NCBI GenBank assembly: GCA_020053375.1
Contig: JAGVNG010000008.1
Span: 1,587 to 65,586, forward strand
Reading direction: 5' to 3'
Source: Nanobdellota archaeon
Lineage (GTDB): Archaea > Nanobdellota > Nanobdellia > Pacearchaeales > GW2011-AR1
Length of the DNA: 64,000 bases
Part shown: piece after piece, positions 32,177 to 50,468 of the stretch
How positions within the stretch are numbered: the stretch's first letter is position 1
How the letters are laid out: every line of letters starts with the position of its first letter
Position numbers and translations under genes: made by a program
Notes under the pieces: generated by a model
Databases searched by the model: none
What the model saw: only the letters and a program-made list of their open reading frames with translations
What the model was told of the DNA's origin: nothing

Positions 32177-32300
32177 AAATTAAGGATTCTTTAGTCCCCA
32201 TGGAGACCATCAAAGTTAGGATTATATCTGGAGAAGAATATAAACAAAGATTAGCAGATTATCATAAAAATAATCCCTAAAGCCAATCCCCCAAGCTTCT

Positions 32301-33554: not shown

Positions 33555-33639
33555 AATCTTTTGATATTTAAAAATCTTTCTATTTTACACCATTTATCGG
33601 GAAAAATCCTATAAATAGTGAATTATAGAACAATAATTC

Positions 33640-34854
33640 TCACAGCCAATCCCCCAAACTTCTCTGAGTCCTTACTTGTTCGAGAAGTTTGCTGCTTTTA
33701 AGAAAGGGAGAATTATCAAATCCAAACTTAATCATTCCTATTTTTGTTGAGCTTTCAAGAAGCTCTTCCAGCTTTGTGAAGTCAAGCTTCTTGTTTGCGA
33801 GCGCTTTTCTAACAGATTCGCGCACTACCCACACACCCAGAGCAGCCCAATAACTTGGCGTTTCTATTCTGATTGCCAGCACTCCTGCCTGCTTGTTTAT
33901 TTTGTTTAGGTATTCCAATATAGGAAGCCTCGACGCATAATATCCCCCTGCAGTTGCATATGCATATTCTTTTCTTCCTGAATACGGCTCAAAATCAGTT
34001 GATGCCCTTATCCTATTGGAGGGATTCCATGAACTTCCAGGGAGATAAAGCTCAAATAATTCATAGCTCCACGTGCTTGGAAACAATAGGATAATGTAAT
34101 GATTTCCAAGAAAGCTCCCATAGAATAATTCATAATTTTCAATCCACTTGTTTTTCTTTACTTTTTCAAGCAGTTGCTTTCCAAGGGTGTCGTCTGTTGC
34201 GGTTATGCTCCATCTAGTAGGAACGAGTTTTCTATTTTTCTTTAGTCCAAGAACTCCTATGCTCAATATCTTGCTCAACACATATTCATCAAAATTATTC
34301 TTGCGTAAAACTCTGAAAGCATCTGTTGCCTTCATATCATCATTCATAACCTTGTCAAGTTTTCTGTCTATTTTTACATTAGAGACTATCTTTGCAGATT
34401 TCATGCCTGCCCTCATTCCATGCGGCGTCAGAATCTGGTCCTTTTCCCTTCCAATGCTGACTTTATTTTTAAGCTCAATCTCAACATCAACAGGCTTTGA
34501 CGCGGTTGCTATCTCTTGGGCAATCTGCACAAATTTGCTGCTGTGCCTAACGTCTGTAACATTTGATTGAAATCTGGAGTTCAGAAGACTATCTCTTAAT
34601 TTAACAACATCGTTTATCTGAAAGTTTTTATCCGCCCAGTATTTTGGCTGGTCATAAACCCACGCATCCTCATCCCTCTGCAAAGGACTTAAGATACCCA
34701 CATTTACAAGGGGGTAATGAAGCTTTGAGCCGACAAAAACGCTTGGGGGAGAGCTTCCATCTAAATGGGAAATGCTATCAAAACTTTTATATTTAAAATT
34801 AAGTTCGGATATTTTCTTTATTATCTCAAATTTTATGTCTTTTTCCTGTTCCAT
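33640..34854 (-). CDS. possible Nre-family DNA-repair protein with C-terminal PIP box
   Basis: About 400 aa, C-terminal QRSLGDWL fits the PCNA-interacting Qxx[LIM]xx[FWY][FWYL] motif; family assignment tentative. Confidence 0.35.
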   Translation of the reverse strand: MEQEKDIKFEIIKKISELNFKYKSFDSISHLDGSSPPSVFVGSKLHYPLVNVGILSPLQRDEDAWVYDQPKYWADKNFQINDVVKLRDSLLNSRFQSNVTDVRHSSKFVQIAQEIATASKPVDVEIELKNKVSIGREKDQILTPHGMRAGMKSAKIVSNVKIDRKLDKVMNDDMKATDAFRVLRKNNFDEYVLSKILSIGVLGLKKNRKLVPTRWSITATDDTLGKQLLEKVKKNKWIENYELFYGSFLGNHYIILLFPSTWSYELFELYLPGSSWNPSNRIRASTDFEPYSGRKEYAYATAGGYYASRLPILEYLNKINKQAGVLAIRIETPSYWAALGVWVVRESVRKALANKKLDFTKLEELLESSTKIGMIKFGFDNSPFLKSSKLLEQVRTQRSLGDWL

Positions 34855-34984
34855 CTTAACTAATCAGAATAAACTTGTTTAAAATCTTTAAGAACTACCA
34901 AGAAGTTGCTAATCTGATAATACCTCTAACAAATCTATGCCAAAAATGATTTATTAATTAACTATTTTTCCAATATAATCTCTG

Positions 34985-35725
34985 TTATATCCATCCTCTC
35001 CTAAAAACACCCTCATTTCTTATCTCAAAATTCATTTCCTTTACAGGCAGGCTTCTATGCTTCAATAATACTGCCTTTTTTTTGCTTCCTTCTGTCTTCA
35101 ATTCTATGATGCATTTGCACCAGTATTTCATCAAATCCCCTCCCACGAGGCTTATTCTTTTTTCAACCCCTTTTTCAAATTCTTCTTTTGACAAAAAATC
35201 AGAATAAACCTGATTGGTGATTATGATTGGAATATTGTATTTTCTTGATATCTCTGACAGGATCTTCATCTGGTTTGCAATATCCCTATTGACATCCCTT
35301 ATTTTTTCATCATTTTTTAGCTTGATTGCGTCCCCCAATTCAAGCCGGTAATGCATTGCCATCCCATCAACTACTATCATCTCAATCTTTTCTTTTTTTA
35401 TAATTTCAGGCAGCTTCTGAAAATGCTTTTTCTGCTCTTCAAAGTCAGTCGGTTCTATAAGCAGGATGTTTCCAAGCACTTCTTCATAGCTGTCCCCTGC
35501 CATCTGTTTTACTCTTTCAGAAGAAAAACCGCCCTCAGTGTCAATGTAAAGCACCTTATTCCTCTTTTTCGCCTGGCTGCACACCGCAAGTATGCATAGG
35601 TTGGTTTTCCCGCTTCCAGGCGGACCTGCTATCATTGTTATTACGCCCTTTTCATAGCCTCCATAAAGCCATTTGTTGAAATCAAAGCTTCCTGTAGAAA
35701 TTTTTCCTGCCTGCGGGACATCCAT
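34985..35725 (-). CDS. radB: RadB-type RecA/RadA paralog
   Basis: MIAGPPGSGKTNLC Walker A, IVVDGMAMHYR, 246 aa with no N-terminal HhH domain. Confidence 0.7.
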   Translation of the reverse strand: MDVPQAGKISTGSFDFNKWLYGGYEKGVITMIAGPPGSGKTNLCILAVCSQAKKRNKVLYIDTEGGFSSERVKQMAGDSYEEVLGNILLIEPTDFEEQKKHFQKLPEIIKKEKIEMIVVDGMAMHYRLELGDAIKLKNDEKIRDVNRDIANQMKILSEISRKYNIPIIITNQVYSDFLSKEEFEKGVEKRISLVGGDLMKYWCKCIIELKTEGSKKKAVLLKHRSLPVKEMNFEIRNEGVFRRGWI

Positions 35726-35766
35726 GCTGAAAAGAATCAGGGAGGATTAATAAGAATTATTGTGAT

Positions 35767-36003
35767 TTAAGCCGATTTAAGAGGCTTGAATTTAGCTATT
35801 GACAAGCCCTCTTTTTTGGCAAGCTCCTCAAGGGAAATTGAATTAACTCCTATTGTTTTTGCCATCTGCCCATGAATCATTCTGCCTTTTAATTTTTGAA
35901 CAACCAAATAATAAGTGGAACCATTGGATTCATTATATTTAATAACCCCTCCGCCCCCTTTTGCATACTTTCTTAGTTCCGATAATAATTCTTCACGATT
36001 CAT
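35767..36003 (-). CDS. hypothetical protein
   Basis: 78-aa ORF. Confidence 0.3.
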   Translation of the reverse strand: MNREELLSELRKYAKGGGGVIKYNESNGSTYYLVVQKLKGRMIHGQMAKTIGVNSISLEELAKKEGLSIAKFKPLKSA

Positions 36004-36056
36004 TAAAAATGGTGCTATTTTGTGTTTAAAAACAAATCTGTATCAGAAAATATCTT

Positions 36057-36320
36057 TTATTTCAGCTTCTTAAAATTAGCCTCTATTTTGTCAAGCTCTT
36101 TTGTAAGATGGGATATAGCTTCAGCGATTGCTTTTTTTGCCGTTTTCCCTTTTGTCTTAACAATAAGAATAGGATTTTCGCTTGCGTGCCCTCTCTTCCA
36201 TGCAGCAAGTGTGACTGCAGTGTCCTTATTGAGATATACTCTCAATATTTCGGCCATGGTCAAATTGTCAAATTCTATTTCAACTTCTTCCTTAGTGTCT
36301 TTAAGAATATTTAACTCCAT
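36057..36320 (-). CDS. rpoL: DNA-directed RNA polymerase subunit L (Rpo11)
   Basis: MELNILKDTKEEVEIEFDNLTMAEILRVYLNKD...ILIVKTKG resembles the Rpo11/RpoL dimerisation fold. Confidence 0.65.
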   Translation of the reverse strand: MELNILKDTKEEVEIEFDNLTMAEILRVYLNKDTAVTLAAWKRGHASENPILIVKTKGKTAKKAIAEAISHLTKELDKIEANFKKLK

Positions 36321-36389
36321 GCATGAAAATCACAATTTCAGTTTATAAAACTTTCCGACAGAAAGTTTTGCTTAAAAAAACCGCGGTTT

Positions 36390-37100
36390 TTACTTCTTAA
36401 AAATCAACTTTCTGATTTCCTCTTCAGATAAATCCTTGTCGGCTTTTTTCTTCACTTCTTTTAAATCAAAAATTGTCAGCTCGTCTGGATTCTTTTTGCC
36501 TAGGTCAAGAAAGGGTGTAGGAACAAAATCATGAACAGAATTCTTGGTATTTTCCATGGTCATCTTTGAAGTTTCTTTTAATAGATTAATCTCTAGATAG
36601 CCTTGAATTTTGTTGAGAAGGTAATTATTCTCTGGCAGGATTCCTTCCTCCGCCATCTTTATCGCAGCCTCTGCCTCCCCTATTGCATCCGCCATCTGCT
36701 TCTGCGTGACATGCTTTGATCTTCTCGCTCTCATTATTATCCAATGAAAGTTATCTACTAAATCGGGTCTTGGCTTTGCTTCCTGCTTAATTTTTTCAGC
36801 ATAGTTTTTGTCAACCATTGCCCTAAGGCTTTTCTCCTGCCTGATCAGATAGTCGCTCTTTTCAACTTTTCGTTCATTTAAATTCTTTAGTCCAGACATT
36901 CTTGAAAGCCTCTCATAAGTTGTTGGCTTTCTCTCTATTTCCTTTAGCTGAAATGCAGTTGGCCTTCTTAATATGGGAAAATCCGAGAAAGCAGAACAGC
37001 CTTCGCATATCTTAACCAATCCTTCTTTTGTTATTGCGTCAAACAGTTGGGCATTTTTATCAGAAATCCCGCACTTAAAACATTCAGCCATAACAGTCAA
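36390..37100 (-). CDS. zinc-ribbon plus XRE-type HTH protein (MBF1-like)
   Basis: N-terminal CFKC...CEGC ribbon; HTH VTQKQMADAIGEAEAAIKMAE. Confidence 0.5.
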   Translation of the reverse strand: MTVMAECFKCGISDKNAQLFDAITKEGLVKICEGCSAFSDFPILRRPTAFQLKEIERKPTTYERLSRMSGLKNLNERKVEKSDYLIRQEKSLRAMVDKNYAEKIKQEAKPRPDLVDNFHWIIMRARRSKHVTQKQMADAIGEAEAAIKMAEEGILPENNYLLNKIQGYLEINLLKETSKMTMENTKNSVHDFVPTPFLDLGKKNPDELTIFDLKEVKKKADKDLSEEEIRKLIFKK

Positions 37101-37144
37101 AAGAAAGAAACCCTTTTTTAAGATTTCTGTGATGAAAACATCAG

Positions 37145-37801
37145 TTACCTGAGATATTTTTCTATGTCTGTTGCAGAAGTCAGATTATAAAGAACATCTT
37201 TATCATTGATTATGACAGCAGGATATCTATCAATCTTAAACCCAGCCAAGAGTGATTTTAATGATATAATATTGTTGTTTACTGCAATAGGTATGAGCAC
37301 TATTTTTTCCCCGCTTTTCTGCTTCAAGTCAAATAAGATTCTGGACCATACTATCTGCTGTGCTTTTTCTGTTAAGTCATTGGTATTATAATTGTAAAGA
37401 TAAATAACCTCATTAAAATCGCTTCCGCATTTCTCTCTAGTCTTCATCACATTTATCCAAAGAATTGTTCTCAGCAGATCATATCTCTTATGTGCTGCGT
37501 TAATGCTGTCCGTTATTTTGCCTGAATCCTCGTACTTTTCAAGTATCTGTGCTTCGTTATATATCTTATCGGCAAACTGAATGTCATAATTAATTGATTC
37601 ATTACAACTGACATTCTTCAAGTCAGAAATCCTATTCAAAGCTATAGAGTCCATTAGTGATATTTCAGAAAGCGCATAATATTCATTTATAGTATTCAGC
37701 CTGCTGCTTTCAAAGGAAACCCCAATCATAAGACCAATTATGAATACAACCATCGCCAGTAAAAATGCCTCTAAAAAAGCTCTTTTTGGATTGTCAAACA
37801 T
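37145..37801 (-). CDS. membrane-anchored hypothetical protein
   Basis: N-terminal TM helix; 218 aa. Confidence 0.35.
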   Translation of the reverse strand: MFDNPKRAFLEAFLLAMVVFIIGLMIGVSFESSRLNTINEYYALSEISLMDSIALNRISDLKNVSCNESINYDIQFADKIYNEAQILEKYEDSGKITDSINAAHKRYDLLRTILWINVMKTREKCGSDFNEVIYLYNYNTNDLTEKAQQIVWSRILFDLKQKSGEKIVLIPIAVNNNIISLKSLLAGFKIDRYPAVIINDKDVLYNLTSATDIEKYLR

Positions 37802-37811
37802 TTTCTTTTAT

Positions 37812-39041
37812 TTACCAGGAATATCCGCCTTTTAAATAATTATACACAGAGACTATCAATATTATTGGATAAACTGAAAGATAGAAGATTGTATAGCCTG
37901 CCAGCGTCAAAATTCCCTCATTTCTATGGTCTTTTTCTTTGAGGAAAGAAATAACAAATATTGTAAAAGAAAGCCCCAGAATAAAGAGAAATATTCCGTA
38001 GAATGACAAAATGCTGGGGGTAAGATTTATTTCCCTAAGAGTAAGAATGGCTGTCTGCGCTTCTACAGAATAGACTGTGGAAAGATAATTGACAAATATT
38101 CTTCTTCCAAAATTATATAGTTGTATTGCAAGCCCTATGCCCCCTATAATCCACGAAGAAATAAAAAATGGCAATATGAAACTTCCGAGTGAGCCCTTTT
38201 TCATAAAAAGATGCCTGTATTTTTTTATGGTTTGTATTCCGCCGATGTTCCACCTTATTCTTTGTCGGTACCACTGCCTCAGTGTGTCAGGAATAACGGT
38301 AAGAACCTTCGATGTCATAGACATCTCCACCTTATATCCTCTTGAAACAAGGTTCCATGTAATCTCAATATCTTCCGTGACATTTTTCTCATCAAAACCG
38401 CCTATCTCAATAAATATTTTTTTTCTGTAAATTGCCAACGGCCCAGGAGTCACATATATTGCTTCCAGAAACCCCAAAAGTTTTCTCGTAAATGCTATGA
38501 CTTTATATTCCAAAGATTGAAGCCTTTCTATTGTCTTTTTTCTGTTCTTGGCAATTATTAAGGCAGTTACGCCTGCAACTTTTTCGTTATTAAAAAATCC
38601 CATGGCTTTTGATATTGCATCCGTGTCAGGGAAGGAGTCGGCATCCGTAAATCCTATCATCTCTGATTTTGCAAATTTTGCCCCGAAGTTTTTTGCATTA
38701 GCTGCCCTTCCTGTATTCTGGGGAGTCTGCAATGCAACAACATTAGAATATCTCGCCGCAAGCCGCTTTATTATCTTATATGAGCCGTCTGTGCTGCAAT
38801 CATCAACAACATAAATCCTATTCAACCCAGAATAGTCAGATGCCATTAAAGCTTTAACAGTTGCCTCGATCGTATCCTCCTCGTTGTAACATGGAACAAC
38901 CATATCCAGTGAATAAATTTTCTTTGTCTTTGGGCAGTATAGCATATCCTTCTTATTTTGCAGGTATACGATTGTGAAAAGAAAAAGAAAAAATAATGCA
39001 ATAAATGCATATGCAAGATAAACTATAGTCAGAGCATCCAT
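37812..39041 (-). CDS. family 2 glycosyltransferase with multiple TM helices (processive synthase-like)
   Basis: VVPCYNEEDTI, VDDCSTDGS, DADS-like motifs and a QxxRW-like RQRIRW. Confidence 0.8.
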   Translation of the reverse strand: MDALTIVYLAYAFIALFFLFLFTIVYLQNKKDMLYCPKTKKIYSLDMVVPCYNEEDTIEATVKALMASDYSGLNRIYVVDDCSTDGSYKIIKRLAARYSNVVALQTPQNTGRAANAKNFGAKFAKSEMIGFTDADSFPDTDAISKAMGFFNNEKVAGVTALIIAKNRKKTIERLQSLEYKVIAFTRKLLGFLEAIYVTPGPLAIYRKKIFIEIGGFDEKNVTEDIEITWNLVSRGYKVEMSMTSKVLTVIPDTLRQWYRQRIRWNIGGIQTIKKYRHLFMKKGSLGSFILPFFISSWIIGGIGLAIQLYNFGRRIFVNYLSTVYSVEAQTAILTLREINLTPSILSFYGIFLFILGLSFTIFVISFLKEKDHRNEGILTLAGYTIFYLSVYPIILIVSVYNYLKGGYSW

Positions 39042-39042
39042 T

Positions 39043-39654
39043 TTATGTTCCCTCTGCTTTGGCCGCGCCTGGACGAAGTTTCTCCTCTATCTTGACCACG
39101 CTTGGGCGAGATTTCTCCTCTTCAGCTTTATTCCCTATTTCCTGCAATGAACTTCCCTCGCTAACGCTAAAATAATCATAAAAGTCATCGCTTAGAGTCA
39201 ATTCACTGGTGTGCCCTGCCTTCTTTTTTTTAATCAAGTTCAGCTCTGCAAATCTTTTAATGTGGTCATATGCCTTGTTTCCTCTTATCTTTATTATTAC
39301 AGACTGCTTGATTGGCTGCTTGAATGCTATTATCGCGAGTGTTTCCTGTTCTGCCTTTGAAAATTCGCTGCTTCCAGTGGCAAGCTTGTTTACTATGCTG
39401 GAATATTCTCTCTTGACATCCATCTTCCACATTTCGTTCTTTTCAATTATTTCAAGCGCAGAATTATCTTTTTCATACTTTTCTTGGAGCTTTTCTATGA
39501 AAGTTTTTATTATAACAGGGTTTAAATCAGAAAGGGAGACAAGCTCCTGCATATTGAGAAACCTTCCCGAAACAAAAAAAACGGCTTCCAGCCTTTTCAT
39601 ATCCTCTTTTTCTCTTGCGCCATCCACCTCATCAAGTGTCCTGCTCGTAACCAT
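39043..39654 (-). CDS. scpB: segregation and condensation protein B
   Basis: LEAVFFVSGRFLNMQEL... (ScpB EAxLFxSxEPL signature), tandem winged helices. Confidence 0.7.
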   Translation of the reverse strand: MVTSRTLDEVDGAREKEDMKRLEAVFFVSGRFLNMQELVSLSDLNPVIIKTFIEKLQEKYEKDNSALEIIEKNEMWKMDVKREYSSIVNKLATGSSEFSKAEQETLAIIAFKQPIKQSVIIKIRGNKAYDHIKRFAELNLIKKKKAGHTSELTLSDDFYDYFSVSEGSSLQEIGNKAEEEKSRPSVVKIEEKLRPGAAKAEGT

Positions 39655-39685
39655 TAATATGAAAAATCCTTAGGATTTATAAGTA

Positions 39686-40246
39686 TTGTTAAATAATAAA
39701 AATAAAAGGGTATTAAATTTATATCCCTCATTTATAATGATAAAGAAAAAATTATTGATTATTTTGTTAGTTATCGTCTCTCTAATATTTCTTCTGTTTA
39801 TCATAAGATTAATCAGCCCAAAAGAAATAGACGATGTAACGCCAGGGATATTCTGCGAAACAAAATATCTGGAAAAGAGCGATATCTTATGGGTAATTCC
39901 TGATTTCGACAACACTGCGATTTCAGAAAACGCATCATGGTGTAAGCACATATTAAGCCTGAATAAGACTCTTGGAATGCATGGTATCATGCACGCATAT
40001 GATGAATTCCTTGTTGACAGAAACAATGAATATCTTTACAGGGGAATAAAAATATTTGAAGATTGTTTTGGCTTCAGACCAGAAATGTTCAAGCCGCCCC
40101 AGCTGAAGATATCCGATAGCAACACGAAGCTGATAGAAGGCAATAATCTTAAATTAAAAATGAATTTTAATCAGTTAGTGCATAAGGTTTATCACTGCAA
40201 TGATGAACCTGAATTTGTTAAAAATAAGGTTATTGATTGGGTTTAA
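39686..40246 (+). CDS. hypothetical protein with N-terminal TM helix
   Basis: 186-aa ORF. Confidence 0.35.
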   Translation: MLNNKNKRVLNLYPSFIMIKKKLLIILLVIVSLIFLLFIIRLISPKEIDDVTPGIFCETKYLEKSDILWVIPDFDNTAISENASWCKHILSLNKTLGMHGIMHAYDEFLVDRNNEYLYRGIKIFEDCFGFRPEMFKPPQLKISDSNTKLIEGNNLKLKMNFNQLVHKVYHCNDEPEFVKNKVIDWV

Positions 40247-41739
40247 ATCCTAAACCTCAATATCGCGCCTATGCCAGAAAGCTTTGCAAACTGGTCTCCT
40301 TCTGTCGTGTCCGTCGAAACAATCTCAAAATTGGCAGATGTGCTTTCAGCCAGTTTCTTGAATTCCTTCATCTTCTTCTTGTCATAACTCTTGGAGATTA
40401 TGATGGTATCCACCGCACCATATCCCACTGCTTTTCTTATTTCATCCTCATTATAGATTGACATTTCTCCCCTATTTCCGAGCCTTTCAAAGAATTTTTC
40501 AAGAAGTTTTTTCTCTTTTACTATTTCCTGACTGGCGAGTATATCCTGCGATCTTTCAACTAATTCCTTCAGTCCCGATTCATCTGAATCGCCTATGTCT
40601 TTTCTGCCTATTATTTTTTCCCTTAACTTTGTGACGAGATATTCCCCGTCAATAAACTCGTCTTTTGTTGGAATAGGTCCTCCTATAAGTATGCCTTTCA
40701 GCTTAGGCATTTCAAAAAAAACCTTTTTCATTTCATCTGCTATCCGTTTGTAAAATTCTTTTGTGAGCCCCTCGGTTATTCTGTGGAATCTCTGGCTTGA
40801 ATTATGGACAACAAAACCATTGGCGATAAAATTTCCTTGCTCGGTTTCTATGTCAATGAGATTAAAATCACCGCTTCGTTCCTTGATATTAATAATCTTT
40901 AATTCTAAAATAGCATGATTATTTGAACAAATTAAAATATCTCCTACTTTCAAATTTCGCGCAATAACTTCTTCAATATTAAGTTTATTTTTTTTAAAGA
41001 ATGTATGGTCAAAAGAGCATATAATTGATTCTTCATCCTCAACAATAATCTCTAAAACTTTATCTTTAATATTTTCCCATTTATTTTTTATTCTGGTAAA
41101 AACTATTTTATTAGATTCAAAGTTTAAGCCTCTTATTTTATCATTTATTTTTAAATCAATTATATCTTTATTTTTATTATTTAAACTAACCCGGCTATCA
41201 GGACTCAAGCATTGTCCACCTGCCCTCACCTTGCTGGGAACCCCTGATGTCATCTTTTGGATTACTTCTATTCTTTTTCCCTCCAGCAATCCTATTGTGG
41301 CTTCCTTCCTGTCCATCACAAGAAGTCCAAAAACCTCTTTTACTGCGAGCATTTCCCGTAGCGGGTCAAGTATGAATTCCTTGTCACACCTGTACATCCT
41401 AACTTTAAGGGGTGTTGGGGGCTCAATTGCCCATATCTGCAAGTCTTCCTGGCTTTCTGTCTTGGAAACATTTCCGCAAAATATTGCAAACCCTGTTTCA
41501 GGAGTTTTTTTGTAGTCTTTCAAAAACCTTGTAATCTTGTCAAGGGCATTTGTGACATCTTTTCTTGTTGAAGTTGATTTTATGTTCTTGGCCGTTGATT
41601 TTTCCGCTTCAAGCTGGTCTGCAACAGTGTAGATGTTCTGCCCCTCGGGGATATACACCGTGATAAGTTCTGTTGCCCTTGCCCTGTGTTCGCCAAGCTC
41701 TTCCACCAGCTCCTCAAGTTCTTCTTTATTTATTTTCAT
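40243..41739 (-). CDS. prf1: peptide chain release factor aRF1 interrupted by a mini-intein directly after the GGQ motif
   Basis: Exteins join to ...SKVRAGGQ|SSQRFHRITEGL... (eRF1 GGQ loop); N-terminal domain with NIKS-like NIKSTSTRKD. Confidence 0.8.
   Translation of the reverse strand: MKINKEELEELVEELGEHRARATELITVYIPEGQNIYTVADQLEAEKSTAKNIKSTSTRKDVTNALDKITRFLKDYKKTPETGFAIFCGNVSKTESQEDLQIWAIEPPTPLKVRMYRCDKEFILDPLREMLAVKEVFGLLVMDRKEATIGLLEGKRIEVIQKMTSGVPSKVRAGGQCLSPDSRVSLNNKNKDIIDLKINDKIRGLNFESNKIVFTRIKNKWENIKDKVLEIIVEDEESIICSFDHTFFKKNKLNIEEVIARNLKVGDILICSNNHAILELKIINIKERSGDFNLIDIETEQGNFIANGFVVHNSSQRFHRITEGLTKEFYKRIADEMKKVFFEMPKLKGILIGGPIPTKDEFIDGEYLVTKLREKIIGRKDIGDSDESGLKELVERSQDILASQEIVKEKKLLEKFFERLGNRGEMSIYNEDEIRKAVGYGAVDTIIISKSYDKKKMKEFKKLAESTSANFEIVSTDTTEGDQFAKLSGIGAILRFRI
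40801..41211 (-). mobile_element. mini-intein (137 aa, no endonuclease domain) inserted after GGQ of aRF1
   Basis: Begins with Cys (CLSPDSRVSL), ends ...NGFVVHN followed by Ser; excision restores the canonical GGQSSQRF. Confidence 0.7.
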
Positions 41740-41797
41740 AAAATAAATTATACGAAATTTTTAATTTCAGTTTTGTATATTTTGGCATTTTCTTTAG

Positions 41798-44191
41798 TTA
41801 ATCAACAAATTCAACTTTGAATTCTTTTCCTTCTTTAATTTCCTTTGCATTTGTGACATTTTTTAGGTCTTGATGAAATTCTTTTAATGAATTATAAGTT
41901 TTTTTATCCAAAGTTAATACTACAGGAAAATTCAGTGGCTTTTTATCCTCTGTTTTCTTGCTTCTAACTTTAGAAATCAAATCCGTAAAAACAAAAAATC
42001 TATTAGCCCATCCCAATTCTCTCCAATTTCCTTCCGCTAACTCTTGTTTTTTATTATATTCTGGCCATTTAGAAATATGGATGCTCTTATCTTTTTCATT
42101 TTTTCTGTAATATTTTTGATAAAGCTCCTCTGTTATAAAAGGCATTATCGGGGCAATTAATTTTAGGATTGTTAATAAGGATTGATAGAGGGTATAAAAT
42201 GCGGATTCTTTTTCCTGCTTGCTTCCATTGTAGACTCTCCACTTAGCTATTTCAAGGTAATTATCACAAAAAAATTTCCAAAATAATTCATCTATATTAG
42301 ATTTAGCCTTTGAGTAATCATATCCCTCAAAACGAGAGGTAGCGGTAAATACACAATTATTAACTATCTTTAAAAATAATTCATCAATCTTCTCCATCTT
42401 CTTCGGCTTCTTGGGCTTGTAGTCCTTGAGGTTCATGAAAACAAAATTTGAGGCATTTTTCAGTTTTGTAATGAACTTCTTTCCAGCTAGAACATCCTCT
42501 TCCCTGTAATCCATGTTTTCGCCAAGCTTTGAGCCAGACGCCCAGAATCTTAAAGCATCTGCCCCATATTTGTCCATTACATCATTTGGATTGATAACAT
42601 TTCCCTTTGATTTGGACATCTTTTCTCCATGCAGTGTCACAAACCCAGATATCATTATATTATTCCATGGAAGCTTTTTTTCATGCAGGTAAGACTTGAC
42701 AATAGTGTAAAATGTCCACGTTCTTATTATTTCATGCGCCTGAGCCCTTAGAGAATGGGGAATTTTTATCTTTTTGCTTCCAACCAATGATGATATTATT
42801 TGAGGCGTAAGTGAGGAAGTCGCCCACGTGTCAAGAACTTTTGTTTCTCCTACAGCCTCGGCTTTGCAGACAGGGCAGGTTATTTTGATGTTCGTTGGGT
42901 CAATAGGAAGCTCTCTTTCATCAGGAAGAATAATTTCCCCACAGCTTTTGCATTCCCAGACTGGAATTGGAATCCCGAAATACCTGTCCCTTGAAATTGT
43001 CCAGTCCCAATCCAGTCCATTAACCCAGCTTTCATATCTTTTTCTCATGTATTCTGGATACCACTTTATTTTTTTCCCGAGTGAAATCCATTCTTTTTTC
43101 TTGTCAAGAATTTTTATGAACCATTGCTCGGTTGGAAGAAATTCTATCTCTGTCCCGCACTTATCATGAACATTCAACGCATGAACTATCGGTTCCTCTT
43201 TCACAATAAGGTTTTTTGTTCTCAGCTCATCAATTATCTTCTTCCTCGCATCCTTTATTTTCATTCCTTTGCAGATTCCGCTGTTAAGAGTTCCGTCATA
43301 ATTGAAAATTATCTTTGGTACCAAATTGTGCCTTCTAATAGCCTCCGCATCATACTTGTCTCCATAAGAACAAACCATCATTGCTCCTGTTCCCTTTTTC
43401 ATATCTGCAGACTCATCCGCTATAATAGGAACCTCCCAGCCAAATAATGGAACCTTGGCTTTAACTTGGCCAAGCTTGGACGAGTTTCCCTTTCCCTTTG
43501 TCCATTGGTATCTCTTGTCTTTTGGATTCACAAATATGGCAACACATGCAGAAAGCAATTCAGGCCTTGTCGTTGAAACTGGCAAGTCTGTTCCGCCCGC
43601 AGAAAACTTAAGTGTCAAAAACAGGCTTTTCTCCTCCTTGTCCTCAAGCTCTGCCTGCGCAATTGCAGTCTGACATTCAACACACCATATTGTCGGAAAG
43701 TCTTTCTTGTATATCAAACCTTTTTTGTATAAATCAATGAATGATTTCTGCGAGATTTTCCTGCTGTTCTTGTCTATTGTCGAATAAAACATGTCATAAT
43801 CCGCGCTTATTCCTAAGTTTTTCCATTGCTGAACAAAATCAGGAGTTATCTTCCTTAGAGTCCAAAGACACTGATCAATAAATTCTCCTCGTGGCATATT
43901 TCTGCTTTTTATGCTATTTAGCTTCTCAACCAATCTTTCTGTCGGCAAGCCGTTATCGTCTGTGCCAAATGGATAAAAAACATTTTCCCCCATCATTCTT
44001 CTGAATCTTGCTATGAAATCCTGCTGTGAATAAGAAAAGGCATGGCCGACATGCATGTCCCCAGAAACAGTTGGAGGAGGGGTATCTATGCCATAAACTT
44101 TACCCTTCTTTTTCGGATCAAATTTGTAAATCTTTTCCTTTGCCCAGTAATCAAGTATTTCTTTCTCGTAATTTCTTATTTCCCCGTCCAT
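41798..44191 (-). CDS. valS: valyl-tRNA synthetase (compact)
   Basis: DTPPPTVSGDMHVGHAF (HIGH region in a ValRS-like PPPxxTG context), KMSKSKGN. Confidence 0.7.
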   Translation of the reverse strand: MDGEIRNYEKEILDYWAKEKIYKFDPKKKGKVYGIDTPPPTVSGDMHVGHAFSYSQQDFIARFRRMMGENVFYPFGTDDNGLPTERLVEKLNSIKSRNMPRGEFIDQCLWTLRKITPDFVQQWKNLGISADYDMFYSTIDKNSRKISQKSFIDLYKKGLIYKKDFPTIWCVECQTAIAQAELEDKEEKSLFLTLKFSAGGTDLPVSTTRPELLSACVAIFVNPKDKRYQWTKGKGNSSKLGQVKAKVPLFGWEVPIIADESADMKKGTGAMMVCSYGDKYDAEAIRRHNLVPKIIFNYDGTLNSGICKGMKIKDARKKIIDELRTKNLIVKEEPIVHALNVHDKCGTEIEFLPTEQWFIKILDKKKEWISLGKKIKWYPEYMRKRYESWVNGLDWDWTISRDRYFGIPIPVWECKSCGEIILPDERELPIDPTNIKITCPVCKAEAVGETKVLDTWATSSLTPQIISSLVGSKKIKIPHSLRAQAHEIIRTWTFYTIVKSYLHEKKLPWNNIMISGFVTLHGEKMSKSKGNVINPNDVMDKYGADALRFWASGSKLGENMDYREEDVLAGKKFITKLKNASNFVFMNLKDYKPKKPKKMEKIDELFLKIVNNCVFTATSRFEGYDYSKAKSNIDELFWKFFCDNYLEIAKWRVYNGSKQEKESAFYTLYQSLLTILKLIAPIMPFITEELYQKYYRKNEKDKSIHISKWPEYNKKQELAEGNWRELGWANRFFVFTDLISKVRSKKTEDKKPLNFPVVLTLDKKTYNSLKEFHQDLKNVTNAKEIKEGKEFKVEFVD

Positions 44192-44297
44192 GAGATTTTG
44201 AATACAACAACTTTTAAAAACTATTTGGATTTAGCTAAAAGTATGAATATCCTATTCACGGATGCTGGAATTGTGAAAAACCCGCAGGAGGTTTTCA

Positions 44298-44456
44298 ATG
44301 GCAGATAATCCAATAAGCCTTCCCGGAGGATACGGGGGCTTGACAAGATTCAGCGAAGAATATGAAAGCAGGTTCAATCTAAAGCCAGAACACATAATTG
44401 TAATGGTGGTTCTTATAATCCTATTCAGAGTTTCTCTCACATTTATCTATGGATAA
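44298..44456 (+). CDS. secG: preprotein translocase subunit Sec61beta (52 aa, below the ORF-track threshold)
   Basis: MADNPISLPGGYGGLTRFSEEYESRFNLKPEHIIVMVVLIILF: conserved GL-R-[YF]-x-E-E and KPEHVI followed by a TM helix; GGAGG SD 8 nt upstream. Confidence 0.55.
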   Translation: MADNPISLPGGYGGLTRFSEEYESRFNLKPEHIIVMVVLIILFRVSLTFIYG

Positions 44457-44477
44457 ACTTTAATCTATTTAACTAAA

Positions 44478-44807
44478 ATGTTTAACCTTGACCCAAAAAA
44501 AATGCAGTCTGTCATGAAACAAATGGGAATTTCCCAGCAGGATATCCCTGCGCTGAAAGTCATAATCGAAAAACAGGATGGTGGAAAGATAATAGTAAAT
44601 AATCCTTCTGTTGCAAAGATTTCGATGCAAGGTCAGGAATCTTTTCAAATTTCTGGAGATATTTCTGAAGAAGCTGAAAAAGAGGGATTTTCTGAAAAAG
44701 ACATCAAAACAATTATTGAAAAAACAGGGTGCTCTGAGAAAGAGGCAAAAAAGGCTATTGAAAAAACAGGGGATTTGGCTGAATCAATAATGCTTCTGAG
44801 CAAATAA
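44478..44807 (+). CDS. nac: nascent polypeptide-associated complex alpha subunit
   Basis: NAC domain (KKMQSVMKQMGI...KIIVNNPSV) plus C-terminal UBA (KDIKTIIEKTGCSEKEAKKAIEKTGDLAESIMLL). Confidence 0.8.
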   Translation: MFNLDPKKMQSVMKQMGISQQDIPALKVIIEKQDGGKIIVNNPSVAKISMQGQESFQISGDISEEAEKEGFSEKDIKTIIEKTGCSEKEAKKAIEKTGDLAESIMLLSK

Positions 44808-44911
44808 TTCATTTTCTCATTTAAAACTAACTACTCTTAAAGTGCAAAAAGATATAAAAAGGTCATTTCCTTGGGATATTATGCTTCTAAAAACACGGGA
44901 TTACTATAGAA

Positions 44912-45352
44912 ATGGAAGAGATAATACAAGAAAAAATAAGCGCGGATCACCTGTTATATGTGAGTTTAAAATACACTAAGACATGTGATGTAATTGTTAA
45001 TCTTATTCTGAGATGGAGAAAAATGATTGAAAAGAGCATAAGCGAGATATCAAAACACGCCAAAAAAAAGAAAAAGATATCCTCAATTCCTGATAATCCA
45101 AAAGGGCAGATAGAACTCATAAGGAAACTGATGAAAAAAGACCAGAACTTCATTGATGTAATTGACATGTATGAAATGTTCAGGAAAATAGAAGAATTAA
45201 GGAAGGAGAGAATAGGAGAATTCAGAAAAAACGTTACTTTGAAGGTAATTTACAAGGGAGAGGAGATAAGCATAAATCTGGAAAAACTTAAGATATACGC
45301 CGAGAAATTAGAAAAATTCATAACCTCTACTAAGCAATTTCTTCTGTCATAG
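44912..45352 (+). CDS. hypothetical protein
   Basis: 146-aa ORF. Confidence 0.35.
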   Translation: MEEIIQEKISADHLLYVSLKYTKTCDVIVNLILRWRKMIEKSISEISKHAKKKKKISSIPDNPKGQIELIRKLMKKDQNFIDVIDMYEMFRKIEELRKERIGEFRKNVTLKVIYKGEEISINLEKLKIYAEKLEKFITSTKQFLLS

Positions 45353-45415
45353 GCCCTTGCTTGGGCGCATGGTTCTCTACAATAAGATTTAAAAAATAGT
45401 TTACTCTAAAATTAT

Positions 45416-46207
45416 ATGCATAAAATAATTGTTATAACTTCTGGAAAAGGGGGGGTTGGAAAAACAACCACCGCGATAAATCTGGGCGCGGCAATAAATC
45501 AGTTCGGGGGGGATGTTGTAGTCATTGATGCAAATCTTTCCACGCCCAACGTGGGAGTTCATCTTAATTCTCCAGAAGCGCCTGTAAATCTAAATCACGT
45601 TTTGTCCGACAAGGCAGAGGTTTTTGAGGCAGTATATGAGCACGAGTCTGGACTAAAAATAATTCCTTCTTCACTTTCCATAAAAGAGCTAAAGAAGATA
45701 AGACCGGAAAAAATGAAAGACTATAGAAAAGATTTCAGGAAAATTGCTGATTACATAATAATGGACAGTTCAGCAGGATTGGGAACAGAGGCTCTTTCTG
45801 TCATAGATGTCGCTGATGAAATAATAATAGTAAGCAATCCTGAAATGCCTGCCATAACAGATGCTCTTAAAACAATAAGGATTGCAGAACAGATGCGGAA
45901 GCCAATAATAGGAGTTATAATAACAAGGGTAAGAAAAAATGACGCAGAATTGCAGCCAGACGTTGTCAGGGACATGCTGGAAGTGCCCATATTGGGAATG
46001 GTTCCAGAAGATTCAACCATACAGGAAGCTCTGTCTATGAAAAATGCAGTGGTTCATACTCATCCAAAAAGCGCATCCGCTCGCGCATACAAGGAAATAG
46101 CTGCTAGAATAATGGGCGTGAAATATGATTCTGAAAAAGATACGGAAAACATTCTGGAAAAAATCCTACGGAAATTCAAAATAACAAAATGGGAAAAAAA
46201 GCGATAA
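45416..46207 (+). CDS. minD: MinD/ParA-family P-loop ATPase
   Basis: ITSGKGGVGKTTTAINLG deviant Walker A. Confidence 0.8.
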   Translation: MHKIIVITSGKGGVGKTTTAINLGAAINQFGGDVVVIDANLSTPNVGVHLNSPEAPVNLNHVLSDKAEVFEAVYEHESGLKIIPSSLSIKELKKIRPEKMKDYRKDFRKIADYIIMDSSAGLGTEALSVIDVADEIIIVSNPEMPAITDALKTIRIAEQMRKPIIGVIITRVRKNDAELQPDVVRDMLEVPILGMVPEDSTIQEALSMKNAVVHTHPKSASARAYKEIAARIMGVKYDSEKDTENILEKILRKFKITKWEKKR

Positions 46208-47022
46208 ATAGTTTTATTCCAAAGAAATTATTGTTCTTATTTATTATTTTTATTCTCGCCGCAAATGCAAGCGCGCAGGAGCTTCCAAATTTTCAGGACA
46301 AGCATGTCAATGACTTTGCGCATGTGTTCAGCGATAATGAATCACAGCAGTTAAAAACAATTCTGATTGAGCTTGAGCAAAACACAACAGCAGAGGTGGT
46401 TGTTGTGACTGTCAATACTACTTTCCCATTAACTCCTGCACAATATCGAACAGAACTATTCAATTATTGGAAAATAGGAAAAGCAGACAAGGATAACGGA
46501 CTGCTGATATTGTATTCCCGGAGCGAAAATAGGATTGAGGTGGAGACAGGTTATGGTTTGGAGGGAATTCTGCCTGATTCCAAATTAGGAAGAATGCTTG
46601 ATGATTATTATGTGCCGCAGCGTGATAATGGAAATGTTACACAAGGCATCCTCTCGTTTACACAAGAAGTTTCTAAAGTTATCAAAAATAACTCAGCAGA
46701 AATATTATCTCCCTCTAAAAATAACAATTACATTGCAGATTTATTCCCTTATATTATTTTCATTCTAATTTTTATTGCAATGTCTCTTATGTCCAGAAGA
46801 AAAAATAAAAAATGCGCAAAAGACGGCTTGATAATGAAATATATTGGCATGGCTGGAGGCTATTCCATTTACAAATGCGCAAATGGACATATTATCAAAG
46901 AGAAGGGTAGCAGAAACATGAGTGGAGCACTTATCGGCGCAGGAATGAGTGGAGGAGGTGGAGGTTTCGGTGGCGGAGGCTTTGGCGGGGGCATGAGCGG
47001 CGGCGGAGGAGCAGGAAGATAG
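46189..47022 (+). CDS. TPM-domain (YgcG/TLP18.3-like) protein with C-terminal TM and Gly-rich tail
   Basis: HVNDFAHVFSDNE...GLLILYSRSENRIEVETGYGLEGILPD. Confidence 0.65.
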   Translation: MGKKAINSFIPKKLLFLFIIFILAANASAQELPNFQDKHVNDFAHVFSDNESQQLKTILIELEQNTTAEVVVVTVNTTFPLTPAQYRTELFNYWKIGKADKDNGLLILYSRSENRIEVETGYGLEGILPDSKLGRMLDDYYVPQRDNGNVTQGILSFTQEVSKVIKNNSAEILSPSKNNNYIADLFPYIIFILIFIAMSLMSRRKNKKCAKDGLIMKYIGMAGGYSIYKCANGHIIKEKGSRNMSGALIGAGMSGGGGGFGGGGFGGGMSGGGGAGR

Positions 47023-47052
47023 TTTTTTAAACAATAAATATATTTTATTAAG

Positions 47053-47646
47053 ATGAAAACAGATAATTTCTTCAAGAGAAACAAAACATGGATTATTATT
47101 CTGGCAGTTGTTTTAATCTTATTGTTTTATTTTGTTGGAAGATATAATGCTTTCATCACCTTGGACCAGAATGTCAATGGAAAATGGTCAGAAGTTGAAA
47201 ATCAATACCAGAGGCAAGCGGACTTGGTTCCTAATCTTGTCTCAGTAGTATCAAGCTCTGTAAGCGTTGAAACTAATTTTGTCAAGGAAGTTATTGCAGC
47301 CAGAACAGCATGGTCAAGCGCTTCAAGCCAGTTCCAAAAAGATGTTGCAGGAGTCCAGATGAACAATGGAGTTTCTGCGCTGGTAAGCGCTGTTGCAGAG
47401 AATTATCCCGTATTGCAAGCAAACAAGCAATATGTTGCACTGACTGATGAACTGGCAGGAACACAAAACAGGATTGCAACTGCGCGTGGAAGATATATTG
47501 AAAGCATACAGTCTTACAACGTCGCAATCAAGAGATTCCCTTCGAGCCTGCTTGCAGGCATTTACGGATTTGGGGGAAAGGATTATTATCAGGCAGAGCT
47601 TGATTCCATGGAAACCCCTGATCTTGGAACAGGACAGCTTCCTTAG
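47053..47646 (+). CDS. lemA: LemA-family protein
   Basis: N-terminal TM helix, QRQADLVPNLV; typical LemA-TPM gene pair. Confidence 0.7.
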   Translation: MKTDNFFKRNKTWIIILAVVLILLFYFVGRYNAFITLDQNVNGKWSEVENQYQRQADLVPNLVSVVSSSVSVETNFVKEVIAARTAWSSASSQFQKDVAGVQMNNGVSALVSAVAENYPVLQANKQYVALTDELAGTQNRIATARGRYIESIQSYNVAIKRFPSSLLAGIYGFGGKDYYQAELDSMETPDLGTGQLP

Positions 47647-47780
47647 AGATTTCTCGAAAGTTAGCGCCAAACAATAAAACACAATAAGTTAATATAAAAA
47701 CTTCATTATAAAAATTATATATAAATGAATATTAGCATTTAATAAAATCTATAAATCATCTTTTCTTTAATATAGATAAA

Positions 47781-48125
47781 ATGACAGAAGGCATAATTTC
47801 TTTCTCAGATTGGCAAAACCTTGATTTGAGGGTTGGAAAAATCATCAAGGTCGAGGACATAGAAGGCGCTGACAAATTATACAATCTTTCAATAGATTTG
47901 GGAAAAGAGCTGGGAAAAAGGACGCTTGTCGCAGGAATAAAACCCTATTACAAACCCTCAGAACTAAAAAACAAGTTATGTATAGTTTTCTCAAACCTTC
48001 AGCCAAGAACACTTAAAGGAATAGAAAGCCAGGGAATGCTTTTGGCAGCGGTATCAAAAGATGAAAAAGAAGTCAGGCTTCTCTGTCCTGATGCGGAAGT
48101 GGAATTGGGAAGCAAAGTTAGGTAG
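47781..48125 (+). CDS. tRNA-binding protein (Trbp111/CsaA-type OB fold)
   Basis: LDLRVGKIIKVEDIEGADKLYNLSIDLGKE...SQGMLLAA. Confidence 0.75.
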   Translation: MTEGIISFSDWQNLDLRVGKIIKVEDIEGADKLYNLSIDLGKELGKRTLVAGIKPYYKPSELKNKLCIVFSNLQPRTLKGIESQGMLLAAVSKDEKEVRLLCPDAEVELGSKVR

Positions 48126-48208
48126 ATTAGGCGAATTCTATTAAAAATCGATAAATTTATAAATAAACCAAACTTATATATATTCATAAGTCAAGTTAAT
48201 CTTAAAAA

Positions 48209-49425: not shown

Positions 49426-49490
49426 ATTTCTTATAAATATGCTTGAAATATGTTTTTATGAAATGGAAATTATATCTAGCTTTAATTCTC

Positions 49491-49538
49491 TTCTTTGCCC
49501 CGATAAAAGACATAGAACTGGGAAGCGAGGTTAGATAA
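49491..49538. repeat. intergenic repeat family B, copy 1
   Basis: ttctttgccccgataaaagacatagaactgggaagcgaggttagataa. Confidence 0.8.
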
Positions 49539-49600
49539 TGATATTTCTGCCTGTGTGTCTACATAGAAAGTTTTATAAATAATGTAGACGTACATTTTTC

Positions 49601-50406: not shown

Positions 50407-50421
50407 AATTTTATTGCTTTC

Positions 50422-50468
50422 TTCTCTGCCCCGATGAAGGCATAGAATTGGGAAGCAGGGTGAGATAA
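50422..50468. repeat. intergenic repeat family B, copy 2
   Basis: ttctctgccccgatgaaggcatagaattgggaagcagggtgagataa. Confidence 0.8.

What the first reader, a model, noticed from the sequence alone, without database searches (positions are those of the whole stretch)
40801..41211. Mini-intein inserted immediately after the catalytic GGQ motif of release factor aRF1
The aRF1 ORF reads ...SKVRAGGQ then CLSPDSRVSL...NGFVVHN then SSQRFHRITEGL. Removing the 137-aa C...HN segment restores the canonical eRF1 GGQSxxRF loop, so this is an intein in the most conserved, catalytically essential site of the protein. It has no endonuclease domain and a +1 Ser nucleophile. aRF1 is not among the commonly cited intein hosts, and the insertion point inside the GGQ loop is notable because splicing must be essentially obligate.
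Basis: partly seen in the sequence, partly recalled or inferred. Interest (0 to 1): 0.6.

Follow-up and report, generated by a model that had tools for sequence, protein, structure and literature searches.

The report
Mini-intein splitting aRF1's catalytic GGQ loop
The archaeal translation-termination factor gene in this window is interrupted, right after its catalytic Gly-Gly-Gln motif, by a genuine 137-residue self-splicing protein element (a mini-intein) that turns out to be widespread but apparently undescribed in DPANN archaea.

Summary
Window 40801..41211 (minus strand) encodes a 137-aa C…HN segment between GGQ and SSQRF of a 498-aa aRF1, and removing it restores a colinear 361-aa aRF1. 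It is a canonical class-1 mini-intein: Cys1, block B SxxH, block F Asp, terminal His-Asn and +1 Ser are invariant across relatives. The AlphaFold model (pLDDT 96.6) matches solved inteins at TM 0.8-0.9. There is no endonuclease domain.

It is not unique. At the same site and in the same gene neighbourhood, related DPANN archaea carry empty alleles (~361 aa), mini-intein alleles (130-149 aa inteins) or full-length LAGLIDADG inteins (421-512 aa). This is a complete homing cycle. At least 64 GTDB species-representative loci carry the intein.

The window's intein is far closer to inteins in distant hosts (83% nt) than the host genes are to each other (64.5% nt), which suggests lateral acquisition.

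Ten literature searches found no description of an aRF1/eRF1 intein. Verdict: a real, mechanistically ordinary intein at a new host site, so a new member of a known kind, of moderate interest.

Side observation: a Woesearchaeota clade has GG[W/F]SQ in place of GGQS.

The parts
40243..41739 (-). aRF1 precursor gene (498 aa including the intein; the end coordinate includes the TAA stop)
   Evidence: ORF list. TIGR03676 aRF1_eRF1 383 bits. Pfam eRF1_1/2/3. Identical protein P0001 is in public data.
41212..41739 (-). N-extein, aa 1-176: aRF1 N domain with NIKS (41575..41586) and YxCxxxF (41374..41394), plus the first part of the M domain, ending in GGQ
   Evidence: Translation and motif coordinates. 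Alignment to aRF1 4AF1.
41212..41220 (-). GGQ catalytic motif; its Gln is the intein's -1 residue
   Evidence: GGQ is invariant in alignment A2.
40801..41211 (-). 137-aa class-1 mini-intein (HINT splicing domain only, no homing endonuclease); 25% GC against 41% for the exteins
   Evidence: Coordinates and GC. Blocks. AF2 model with pLDDT 96.6. Foldseek hits to inteins at TM 0.8-0.9. PDB profile hit to gp41-1, E 5.8e-15.
41197..41211 (-). Block A: Cys1-Leu-Ser-Pro-Asp (Cys1 is the first nucleophile)
   Evidence: C1 is invariant and L2 is at least 90% conserved in 46 mini-inteins.
41005..41016 (-). Block B: Ser66-Phe-Asp-His69 (an SxxH variant of TxxH)
   Evidence: S66 and H69 are invariant. The same SxxH aligns to CSEEH of gp41-1.
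40801..40854 (-). Blocks F and G: D120-I-E-T-E...N-F-I-A-N-G-F-V-V-H136-N137
   Evidence: D120, E122, F128, H136 and N137 are invariant.
40798..40800 (-). +1 Ser (first C-extein residue, second nucleophile)
   Evidence: This Ser is invariant in all intein-bearing alleles.
40243..40800 (-). C-extein, aa 314-498 plus stop: SSQRF..., the rest of the M domain, and the C domain

Best explanation
The segment is a canonical class-1 mini-intein sitting in the catalytic GGQ loop of the archaeon's release factor aRF1.

Inferred mechanism (standard class-1 chemistry; the sequence supplies every residue it needs):
1. The 498-aa precursor is translated.
2. Cys1 performs an N-S acyl shift on the Gln176-Cys177 bond, helped by block B Ser66/His69.
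3. The +1 Ser attacks the thioester to form a branched ester.
4. Asn137 cyclises, helped by His136 and Asp120, and releases the 137-aa intein.
5. An O-N shift restores a normal Gln-Ser peptide bond. The product is a 361-aa aRF1 with an intact GGQSSQRF loop.

A 16-kDa domain at the loop that must reach the peptidyl-transferase centre should block catalysis. The precursor is therefore presumably inactive and splicing is effectively obligatory (inferred).

Evolution: it is the endonuclease-less stage of a homing element that targets this exact site across DPANN archaea. Empty, full-length LAGLIDADG and mini alleles all occur at the same syntenic locus. The window's copy belongs to a mini-intein lineage that is much more similar between hosts than the host genes are. 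It was therefore most likely acquired laterally, with crossovers inside the highly conserved flanks, rather than being a recent deletion of the full-length intein found in its closest relative.
For: Shown:
- Exact in-frame insertion and restoration of a colinear aRF1.
- Catalytic residues C1, S66, H69, D120, H136, N137 and +1 Ser are invariant over 46 mini-inteins that are otherwise only 36-74% identical to the window's.
- The AF2 model (pLDDT 96.6) is a HINT fold: NpuDnaB 4o1r TM 0.89, rmsd 1.4; TvoVMA 4o1s TM 0.90; gp41-1 6qaz.
- A profile search of PDB sequences returns inteins and related HINT domains only, 19 hits, best gp41-1 at E 5.8e-15.
- Intein dN/dS is 0.18-0.24, indicating purifying selection.
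- Three allele states occur at one site. Among the 119 classifiable top hits, 20 are empty, 58 carry inteins of 133-149 aa and 41 carry inteins of 430/431 aa with LGYYLGDG and GGFFDAEG motifs.
- The gene order ValRS-aRF1-...-ScpB is shared by the window (mini), L080 (full), L081 (empty) and L083 (mini).
- In GTDB species representatives, at least 64 of 79 loci have GGQ|C...HN|S. Their labels are Woese-, Pace-, Nano-, Iain-/Diapherotrites, Aenigmat- and Micr-archaeota, plus Nanohalobium and Forterrea.
- Discordance: the closest exteins are P0005 (94%, full-length intein) and P0031 (89%, empty).
- Window vs P0011: extein 64.5% nt / 66% aa, but intein 83% nt / 76% aa.
- The window's intein is only 36-39% identical to the splicing domain of full-length inteins.
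- At least 30 state changes are needed on the extein tree of 119 tips.
Against: - Splicing itself is not demonstrated; it is inferred from residues, fold and conservation.
- PF14890 (32.9 bits) and TIGR01445 (22.1 bits) fall just below their curated cutoffs.
- Lateral transfer of an endonuclease-less intein needs either a helper endonuclease or plain recombination, and no co-conversion tract is visible. Even the 10 codons next to the junction resemble the window's own lineage.
- The intein's extreme AT content (25% GC) lowers the ceiling for synonymous divergence and inflates nucleotide similarity somewhat.
- The extein tree is a quick NJ tree without support values.
- Single-copy status of aRF1 is known only for these 64 kb.
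Confidence: 0.9

Rival explanations
1. Same intein, different history. The mini-intein is an old, fixed, vertically inherited remnant in this lineage. The empty and full-length alleles in the closest relatives arose by later precise loss or replacement. There was no lateral acquisition of the mini-intein.
For: - Mini-inteins are much more diverse than the 431-aa full-length inteins, which form one tight cluster. This is what old residents look like next to a recently spreading element.
- No co-conversion tract is visible next to the junction.
- The element has no endonuclease of its own.
- AT-biased composition can inflate the nucleotide identity of the intein.
Against: - The intein is more similar than the essential, slowly evolving host protein at the amino-acid level as well (76% vs 66%; pN 0.11 vs 0.23) for window vs P0011/P0012. 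Composition does not explain this.
- The window's extein is nested among 20 empty and 3 full-length alleles, with only one other mini allele in a 25-tip clade.
Confidence: 0.2
2. The intein is a conditional switch rather than a passive parasite. Splicing would be gated by redox state, temperature or host contact. The unspliced precursor could still bind stop codons and aEF1-alpha without hydrolysing, so it would throttle translation termination.
For: - The position in the catalytic loop means precursor and product must differ in activity (inference).
- Retention across many DPANN phyla after endonuclease loss, with purifying selection.
- Conditional protein splicing is established for other archaeal inteins (RadA, cited in PMC4760082).
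Against: - There is no conserved second cysteine or CPGC-type trap. Apart from C1, the cysteines in the window's intein (C65, C95) are not conserved.
- Empty alleles are common in the closest relatives, so the host does not need the intein.
- Purifying selection on splicing residues is expected for any intein in an essential gene.
Confidence: 0.08
3. The segment is a lineage-specific insertion domain or a dead intein that stays in the mature protein, or an assembly artefact.
For: Two intein HMMs score slightly below their curated cutoffs. The segment's GC content differs sharply from the rest of the gene.
Against: - All splicing residues are intact and invariant.
- The fold is HINT with high confidence.
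- The insertion sits in a loop that must enter the peptidyl-transferase centre.
- The same architecture is seen in about 100 independent assemblies from several sources.
- The lower GC of the intein is general: 64 of 65 loci.
Confidence: 0.02

Closest known systems
gp41-1 mini/split intein (cyanophage-like, PDB 6QAZ/6RIZ)
   Same: It is the best sequence match among solved structures to the aRF1 intein profile (E 5.8e-15) and a fold match (TMq 0.82). It is of similar size (128 aa), has Cys1, the unusual Ser-x-x-His block B (CSEEH vs CSFDH), terminal HN, and lacks an endonuclease. Its Ser +1 nucleophile is from my own knowledge.
   Different: gp41-1 is naturally split and sits in a phage gp41 helicase. 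Identity is only about 24%. The aRF1 intein is contiguous and sits in a translation factor.
Archaeal mini-inteins with solved structures (NpuDnaB 4O1R, TvoVMA 4O1S, Pho/Pab CDC21-1 6RPQ/6RPP, Mvu/Mja TFIIB 5O9I/5O9J)
   Same: HINT horseshoe fold with TM 0.83-0.90. Class-1 residue set. Insertion in a catalytic or highly conserved motif of an essential informational protein.
   Different: The host proteins are replication, ATPase or transcription factors. Sequence identity is 19-23%.
aIF2 / IF-2 inteins of Euryarchaeota (listed in Novikova et al. 2016, PMC4760082)
   Same: Inteins in an archaeal translation factor.
   Different: The host is an initiation GTPase with a P-loop-type site. That survey states that core translation components contain few inteins, and its main text does not mention a release factor.
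Full-length LAGLIDADG inteins at the same aRF1 GGQ site (e.g. P0005, NCBI MEK6829440.1, annotated 'LAGLIDADG family homing endonuclease')
   Same: Identical insertion point, same syntenic gene, same block residues.
   Different: These are 431 aa with a two-motif LAGLIDADG domain between blocks B and F. Their splicing domain is only 36-39% identical to the window's mini-intein.

Membership tests
Intein (HINT superfamily), class 1 | In-frame insertion in a conserved host protein whose removal restores a colinear host sequence | tested here: met
   Removal gives a 361-aa aRF1 that aligns gap-free through GGQSSQRF to 4AF1, 3AGK and 1DT9. Empty alleles of 359-364 aa exist in close relatives.
Intein (HINT superfamily), class 1 | Block A N-terminal nucleophile (Cys/Ser1) | tested here: met
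   Cys1 is invariant in 46 mini-inteins and in all GTDB loci.
Intein (HINT superfamily), class 1 | Block B T-x-x-H | tested here: met
   Present as S66-F-D-H69. Both S and H are invariant in the family. The same Ser variant is found in gp41-1.
Intein (HINT superfamily), class 1 | Block F Asp and block G penultimate His + terminal Asn | tested here: met
   D120, H136 and N137 are invariant. TIGR01443 intein_Cterm scores 19.5 bits against a cutoff of 15.6.
Intein (HINT superfamily), class 1 | +1 nucleophile (Cys/Ser/Thr) on the C-extein | tested here: met
   Ser314 is invariant.
Intein (HINT superfamily), class 1 | HINT fold | tested here: met
   AF2 model with pLDDT 96.6 and pTM 0.89. 65 PDB matches at E<=0.001. 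All 50 listed matches are inteins or HINT domains, with TMq up to 0.90.
Intein (HINT superfamily), class 1 | Curated HMM thresholds (Pfam PF14890, TIGR01445) | tested here: inconclusive
   PF14890 scores 32.9 bits against a GA of 35.8. TIGR01445 scores 22.1 against 24.5. Both E-values are significant but sub-threshold.
Intein (HINT superfamily), class 1 | Demonstrated protein splicing | not testable with these tools
   Needs expression and mass spectrometry.
Mini-intein | No homing-endonuclease domain between blocks B and F | tested here: met
   The segment is 137 aa with no LAGLIDADG/HNH hit. Alignment with 431-aa relatives shows a single ~294-aa gap exactly where their LAGLIDADG domain lies.
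Class 3 intein (considered) | No Cys/Ser1 requirement; Trp-Cys-Thr triad with the block F Cys as nucleophile | tested here: not met
   Cys1 is present and invariant. Block F (LIDIETEQGNF) has no Cys.
Bacterial intein-like (BIL) / Hog HINT domains (considered) | HINT domain in variable, non-conserved host contexts, often lacking the +1 nucleophile or the C-terminal Asn | tested here: not met
   The host is a universally conserved protein, the insertion point is fixed, and HN plus +1 Ser are present. BIL2 and Hedgehog appear only as fold neighbours.
aRF1 (TIGR03676) | Three eRF1 domains with NIKS, YxCxxxF and GGQ motifs | tested here: met
   383 bits against a cutoff of 234.7. Pfam eRF1_1/2/3. 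Motif coordinates.

The most novel reading that the evidence does not exclude
The GGQ-site intein is more than a parasite. On this reading, in genome-reduced DPANN archaea the endonuclease-less form is retained and passed between lineages for one of two reasons. Either it acts as a post-translational gate on translation termination, with the precursor acting as a non-hydrolysing stop-codon binder. Or it acts as a 'vaccine' allele that protects the single essential aRF1 gene from cleavage by the co-circulating full-length LAGLIDADG intein.
Probability: 0.1. Interest if true: 0.65.

Novelty: new member of a known kind. Interest (0 to 1): 0.4.

Why it matters
It adds a class-I release factor, at its catalytic GGQ loop, to the list of intein hosts. 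Published surveys say that core translation components contain few inteins.

The allele family is large, spans most DPANN phyla, and shows all three stages of the homing cycle at one syntenic locus. That makes it a clean natural system for studying intein gain, endonuclease loss and precise loss in uncultivated archaea.

It also matters for annotation. Many of these genes are labelled 'hypothetical protein' or 'LAGLIDADG family homing endonuclease', so aRF1 can look absent from DPANN genomes.

Practically, a compact 137-aa Cys1/Ser+1 intein related to the fast gp41-1 intein could be a candidate for protein engineering.

The mechanism itself is textbook, so the conceptual advance is modest.

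Tried and rejected
- A word-indexed homology search with the 137-aa intein alone found only one fragment. The low-complexity, AT-driven composition defeats the word index. The exhaustive phmmer search was needed instead.
- A single-sequence AlphaFold run was useless (pLDDT 41.5). It was redone with the alignment.
- I looked for a co-conversion tract of donor extein sequence next to the junction to support lateral transfer and found none.
- I looked for mosaicism along the extein against the closest full and empty alleles and found no clear pattern.
- I considered that the window's mini-intein is a recent deletion derivative of the 431-aa intein in its closest relative. This is rejected: identity in the splicing domain is only 36-39%.
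- I considered a class-3 intein, a BIL domain and a non-splicing insertion. All are rejected (see the membership tests).
- I looked for a second aRF1 in the window and found none.
- I looked for an aRF1-type homing endonuclease in the window. There are only the HerA intein's LAGLIDADG and a weakly similar free-standing LAGLIDADG ORF.
- Ten literature searches and three targeted paper look-ups found no aRF1/eRF1 intein. Supplementary tables of the main surveys were not available. InBase could not be queried.

Full report
**1. Observation.**
The finding's coordinates are exact, but the gene lies on the minus strand. The ORF 40243..41739 (-) encodes a 498-aa protein. Residues 177-313 (CLSPDSRV...NGFVVHN, 137 aa) correspond to 40801..41211. 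They are preceded by ...SKVRAGGQ and followed by SSQRFHRITEGL.

The whole protein scores 383 bits on the aRF1 equivalog TIGR03676 (cutoff 234.7). It also hits Pfam eRF1_1/2/3, with the eRF1_2 match split in two by the insertion. After deleting the 137 residues, the 361-aa product aligns without a gap across VPSKVRAGGQSSQRFHRI to solved aRF1 from Halobacterium (4AF1, E 1.2e-67), to Aeropyrum (3AGK), and to human eRF1 (1DT9). NIKS and YxCxxxF are present in the N domain.

**2. It is an intein.**
- *HMM hits.* PF14890 gives E 6.9e-8 (32.9 bits, just under GA 35.8). TIGR01443 (C-terminal splicing region) is above its cutoff. TIGR01445 is just below.
- *Conserved residues.* An alignment of 46 mini-inteins from the same site is only 36-74% identical to the window's copy. 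The invariant positions are C1, W45, S66, H69, D120, E122, F128, H136 and N137. That covers blocks A, B (as SxxH), F and G, and the +1 Ser is invariant too.
- *Fold.* With this alignment AlphaFold2 gives pLDDT 96.6 and pTM 0.89; a single-sequence run had failed. All 50 listed Foldseek hits against the PDB are inteins or HINT domains: NpuDnaB 4O1R (TM 0.89, rmsd 1.4), TvoVMA 4O1S (0.90), PhoCDC21-1 and gp41-1.
- *Closest solved relative.* By sequence profile this is the gp41-1 intein (E 5.8e-15), which shares the Ser-x-x-His block B.
- *No endonuclease.* No endonuclease domain is present. Compared with full-length relatives, the mini form lacks a single ~294-aa block between blocks B and F. That block carries two LAGLIDADG motifs, LGYYLGDG and GGFFDAEG.
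- *Selection.* Intein dN/dS is 0.18-0.24.

**3. It is one allele of a large family.**
A database search with the precursor returned 3406 aRF1-like proteins. Of the 120 best, 119 could be classified:
- 20 are empty (359-364 aa).
- 58 carry a 133-149-aa intein.
- 41 carry a 430/431-aa intein.

All intein-bearing alleles have the insertion between GGQ and S(S/A)QRF. The one remaining protein (P0072) also has GGQ|C...HN|S, but its C-extein reads SSQRY and was missed by the pattern.

An exhaustive phmmer search with the intein against 1.84 billion representatives found 141 hits. About 21 of them, from much more divergent aRF1s, again have GGQ|C...HN|S. The nearest non-aRF1 relatives are ~30% identical HINT domains in tandem-HINT proteins and in T4-like portal proteins.

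In one genome per GTDB species, at least 64 of 79 retrieved loci have the intein at this site. Intein sizes are 130-149, 421-434 or 486-512 aa. The MAGs are labelled Woese-, Pace-, Nano-, Iain-/Diapherotrites, Aenigmat- and Micr-archaeota, Nanohalobium and Forterrea.

In an extein-only search centred on a Woesearchaeota clade, 13 of 120 hits carried the intein.

**4. Same locus, three states.**
The gene order is ValRS - aRF1 - (DUF2334) - ScpB - GT2. It is shared by the window (mini), L080/P0005 (431-aa intein), L081/P0031 (empty) and L083/P0011 (mini). These are therefore orthologous loci in different stages of the homing cycle.

**5. History of the window's copy.**
- *Closest host genes.* The closest exteins are P0005 (94% aa, full-length intein) and P0031 (89%, empty). 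On an NJ extein tree the window sits in a 25-tip clade with 20 empty, 3 full-length and only one other mini allele. At least 30 state changes are needed over 119 tips, against a shuffled mean of 49.7.
- *Closest inteins.* The closest inteins (P0011/P0012, 76% aa) sit in exteins that are only ~66% identical. At the DNA level the figures are 83% for the intein and 64.5% for the extein. Non-synonymous divergence of the intein is half that of the essential host protein (0.11 vs 0.23).
- *Relation to full-length inteins.* The window's mini-intein is only 36-39% identical to the splicing domain of the 431-aa inteins. Those form one tight cluster, whereas the minis form many.
- *Reading.* The 431-aa element is currently spreading. 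The minis are older and diverse. The window's lineage obtained its mini-intein laterally.
- *Caveats.* No co-conversion tract is detectable, which would require crossovers inside the ~30 nt of near-invariant DNA flanking the site. AT-biased composition inflates nucleotide similarity. This part therefore remains an inference, and the vertical-remnant rival gets about 0.2.

**6. Composition.**
The intein is 25% GC against 41% for the exteins and 34.7% for the window. This is general: the intein GC is below the extein GC in 64 of 65 GTDB loci, by 7.9 points on average, for minis and full-length inteins alike. It therefore reflects weaker constraint in AT-biased genomes and is not a specific mark of recent arrival.

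**7. Mechanism (inferred from established class-1 intein chemistry).**
1. N-S shift at Gln176-Cys177.
2. Attack by the +1 Ser.
3. Asn137 cyclisation.
4. O-N shift that regenerates GGQ-S.

The GGQ loop must reach the peptidyl-transferase centre, so a 16-kDa insert there should abolish hydrolysis. The N domain (stop-codon reading) and the C domain remain intact. Splicing should therefore be effectively obligatory. No second aRF1 is in the window, but the rest of the genome is unknown.

**8. Novelty.**
Ten full-text searches and targeted reading found no aRF1/eRF1 intein. The papers read were the main prokaryotic intein survey (PMC4760082), a eukaryotic one (PMC10710043) and the release-factor evolution review (PMC6514570). 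The survey states that core translation components contain few inteins.

The sequences themselves are public, often labelled 'hypothetical protein' or 'LAGLIDADG family homing endonuclease'. I therefore rate it a new member of a known kind: a new host and insertion site with a textbook mechanism.

**9. Seen in passing.**
- *A second intein.* A full-length LAGLIDADG intein interrupts a HerA/DUF87 ATPase at 3368..5824.
- *A free-standing endonuclease.* A free-standing LAGLIDADG_3 ORF lies at 55826..56491.
- *A GGQ variant in related loci.* A set of Woesearchaeota/'Nanoarchaeia' aRF1s has V/A-G-G-[W/F]-S-Q-x-R-Y instead of A-G-G-Q-S-x-x-R-F. It accounts for 40 of 120 hits, with and without the intein. 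The genes are at the same ValRS-aRF1-ScpB locus, use ordinary TGG/TTT codons, and all three stop codons are in use nearby. The GGxSQ arrangement is the one reported for Vms1-like release factors (PMC6514570), which suggests the catalytic Gln has moved two positions. Whether these genomes also hold a GGQ copy is unresolved.

Noticed in passing
window 3368..5824 (+): A second intein in the window. An 818-aa HerA/DUF87-type ATPase is interrupted at about aa 78-441 by a full-length intein (PF14890 67.5 bits; LAGLIDADG_3 73.9 bits). Its endonuclease is distantly similar to that of the 431-aa aRF1 inteins (E 8.7e-15).
   Followed up: partly
window 55826..56491 (+): A free-standing 221-aa ORF with a LAGLIDADG_3 domain (PF14528 35.4 bits, cutoff 22.5). 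It has weak similarity to the aRF1-intein endonuclease profile (E 4.5e-5). It is a possible stand-alone homing endonuclease; its target is unknown.
   Followed up: partly
L060 1324..3678, L062 2497..4854, L085 4001..5095, L086 4001..5092; proteins P0261-P0288 and others: A set of Woesearchaeota/'Nanoarchaeia' aRF1s lacks the universal GGQ glutamine. The motif is GG[W/F]-S-Q-x-R-Y (codons TGG/TTT) instead of GGQ-S-x-x-R-F. It accounts for 40 of 120 hits, some with the intein between W and S. The genes sit at the same ValRS-aRF1-ScpB locus as GGQ orthologues, and all three stop codons are used nearby. GGF forms are scattered on the extein tree. The GGxSQ pattern matches that reported for Vms1-like release factors (PMC6514570), which suggests a catalytic Gln shifted by two residues. 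Sole copy or paralogue is unresolved.
   Followed up: partly
protein P0159 (875 aa, acidic, halophile-like): An aRF1 with AGGF|C...HN|SQQRF and a ~500-aa LAGLIDADG intein at the same site. This is a GGxSQ-type variant outside the Woesearchaeota group.
   Followed up: no
L018-L071 (GTDB loci): Outside Pacearchaeota the full-length aRF1 inteins fall in a distinct size class of 486-512 aa (against 421-434 aa). This suggests a different or extended endonuclease/DNA-binding module. The domain content was not examined.
   Followed up: no
window 40801..41211 and 65 GTDB loci: The intein DNA is consistently more AT-rich than its host gene (window 25% vs 41% GC). The intein is lower in 64 of 65 loci, by 7.9 points on average, for both mini and full-length forms.
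   Followed up: yes
proteins P0122, P0124, P0133, P0141, P0143: The nearest non-aRF1 relatives of the intein include proteins made of several tandem HINT domains joined head to tail (...VHN|CF...). One example is 700 aa with about 5 repeats. Their nature is unknown.
   Followed up: no
window 1..64000: No tRNA genes were detected in 64 kb. The window is dense in archaeal informational genes: PolB, CDC48, TopA, ValRS-type and MetRS synthetases, ATP-dependent DNA ligase, Nre and ScpB. This is consistent with a Pacearchaeota/Nanoarchaeota (DPANN) genome.
   Followed up: partly
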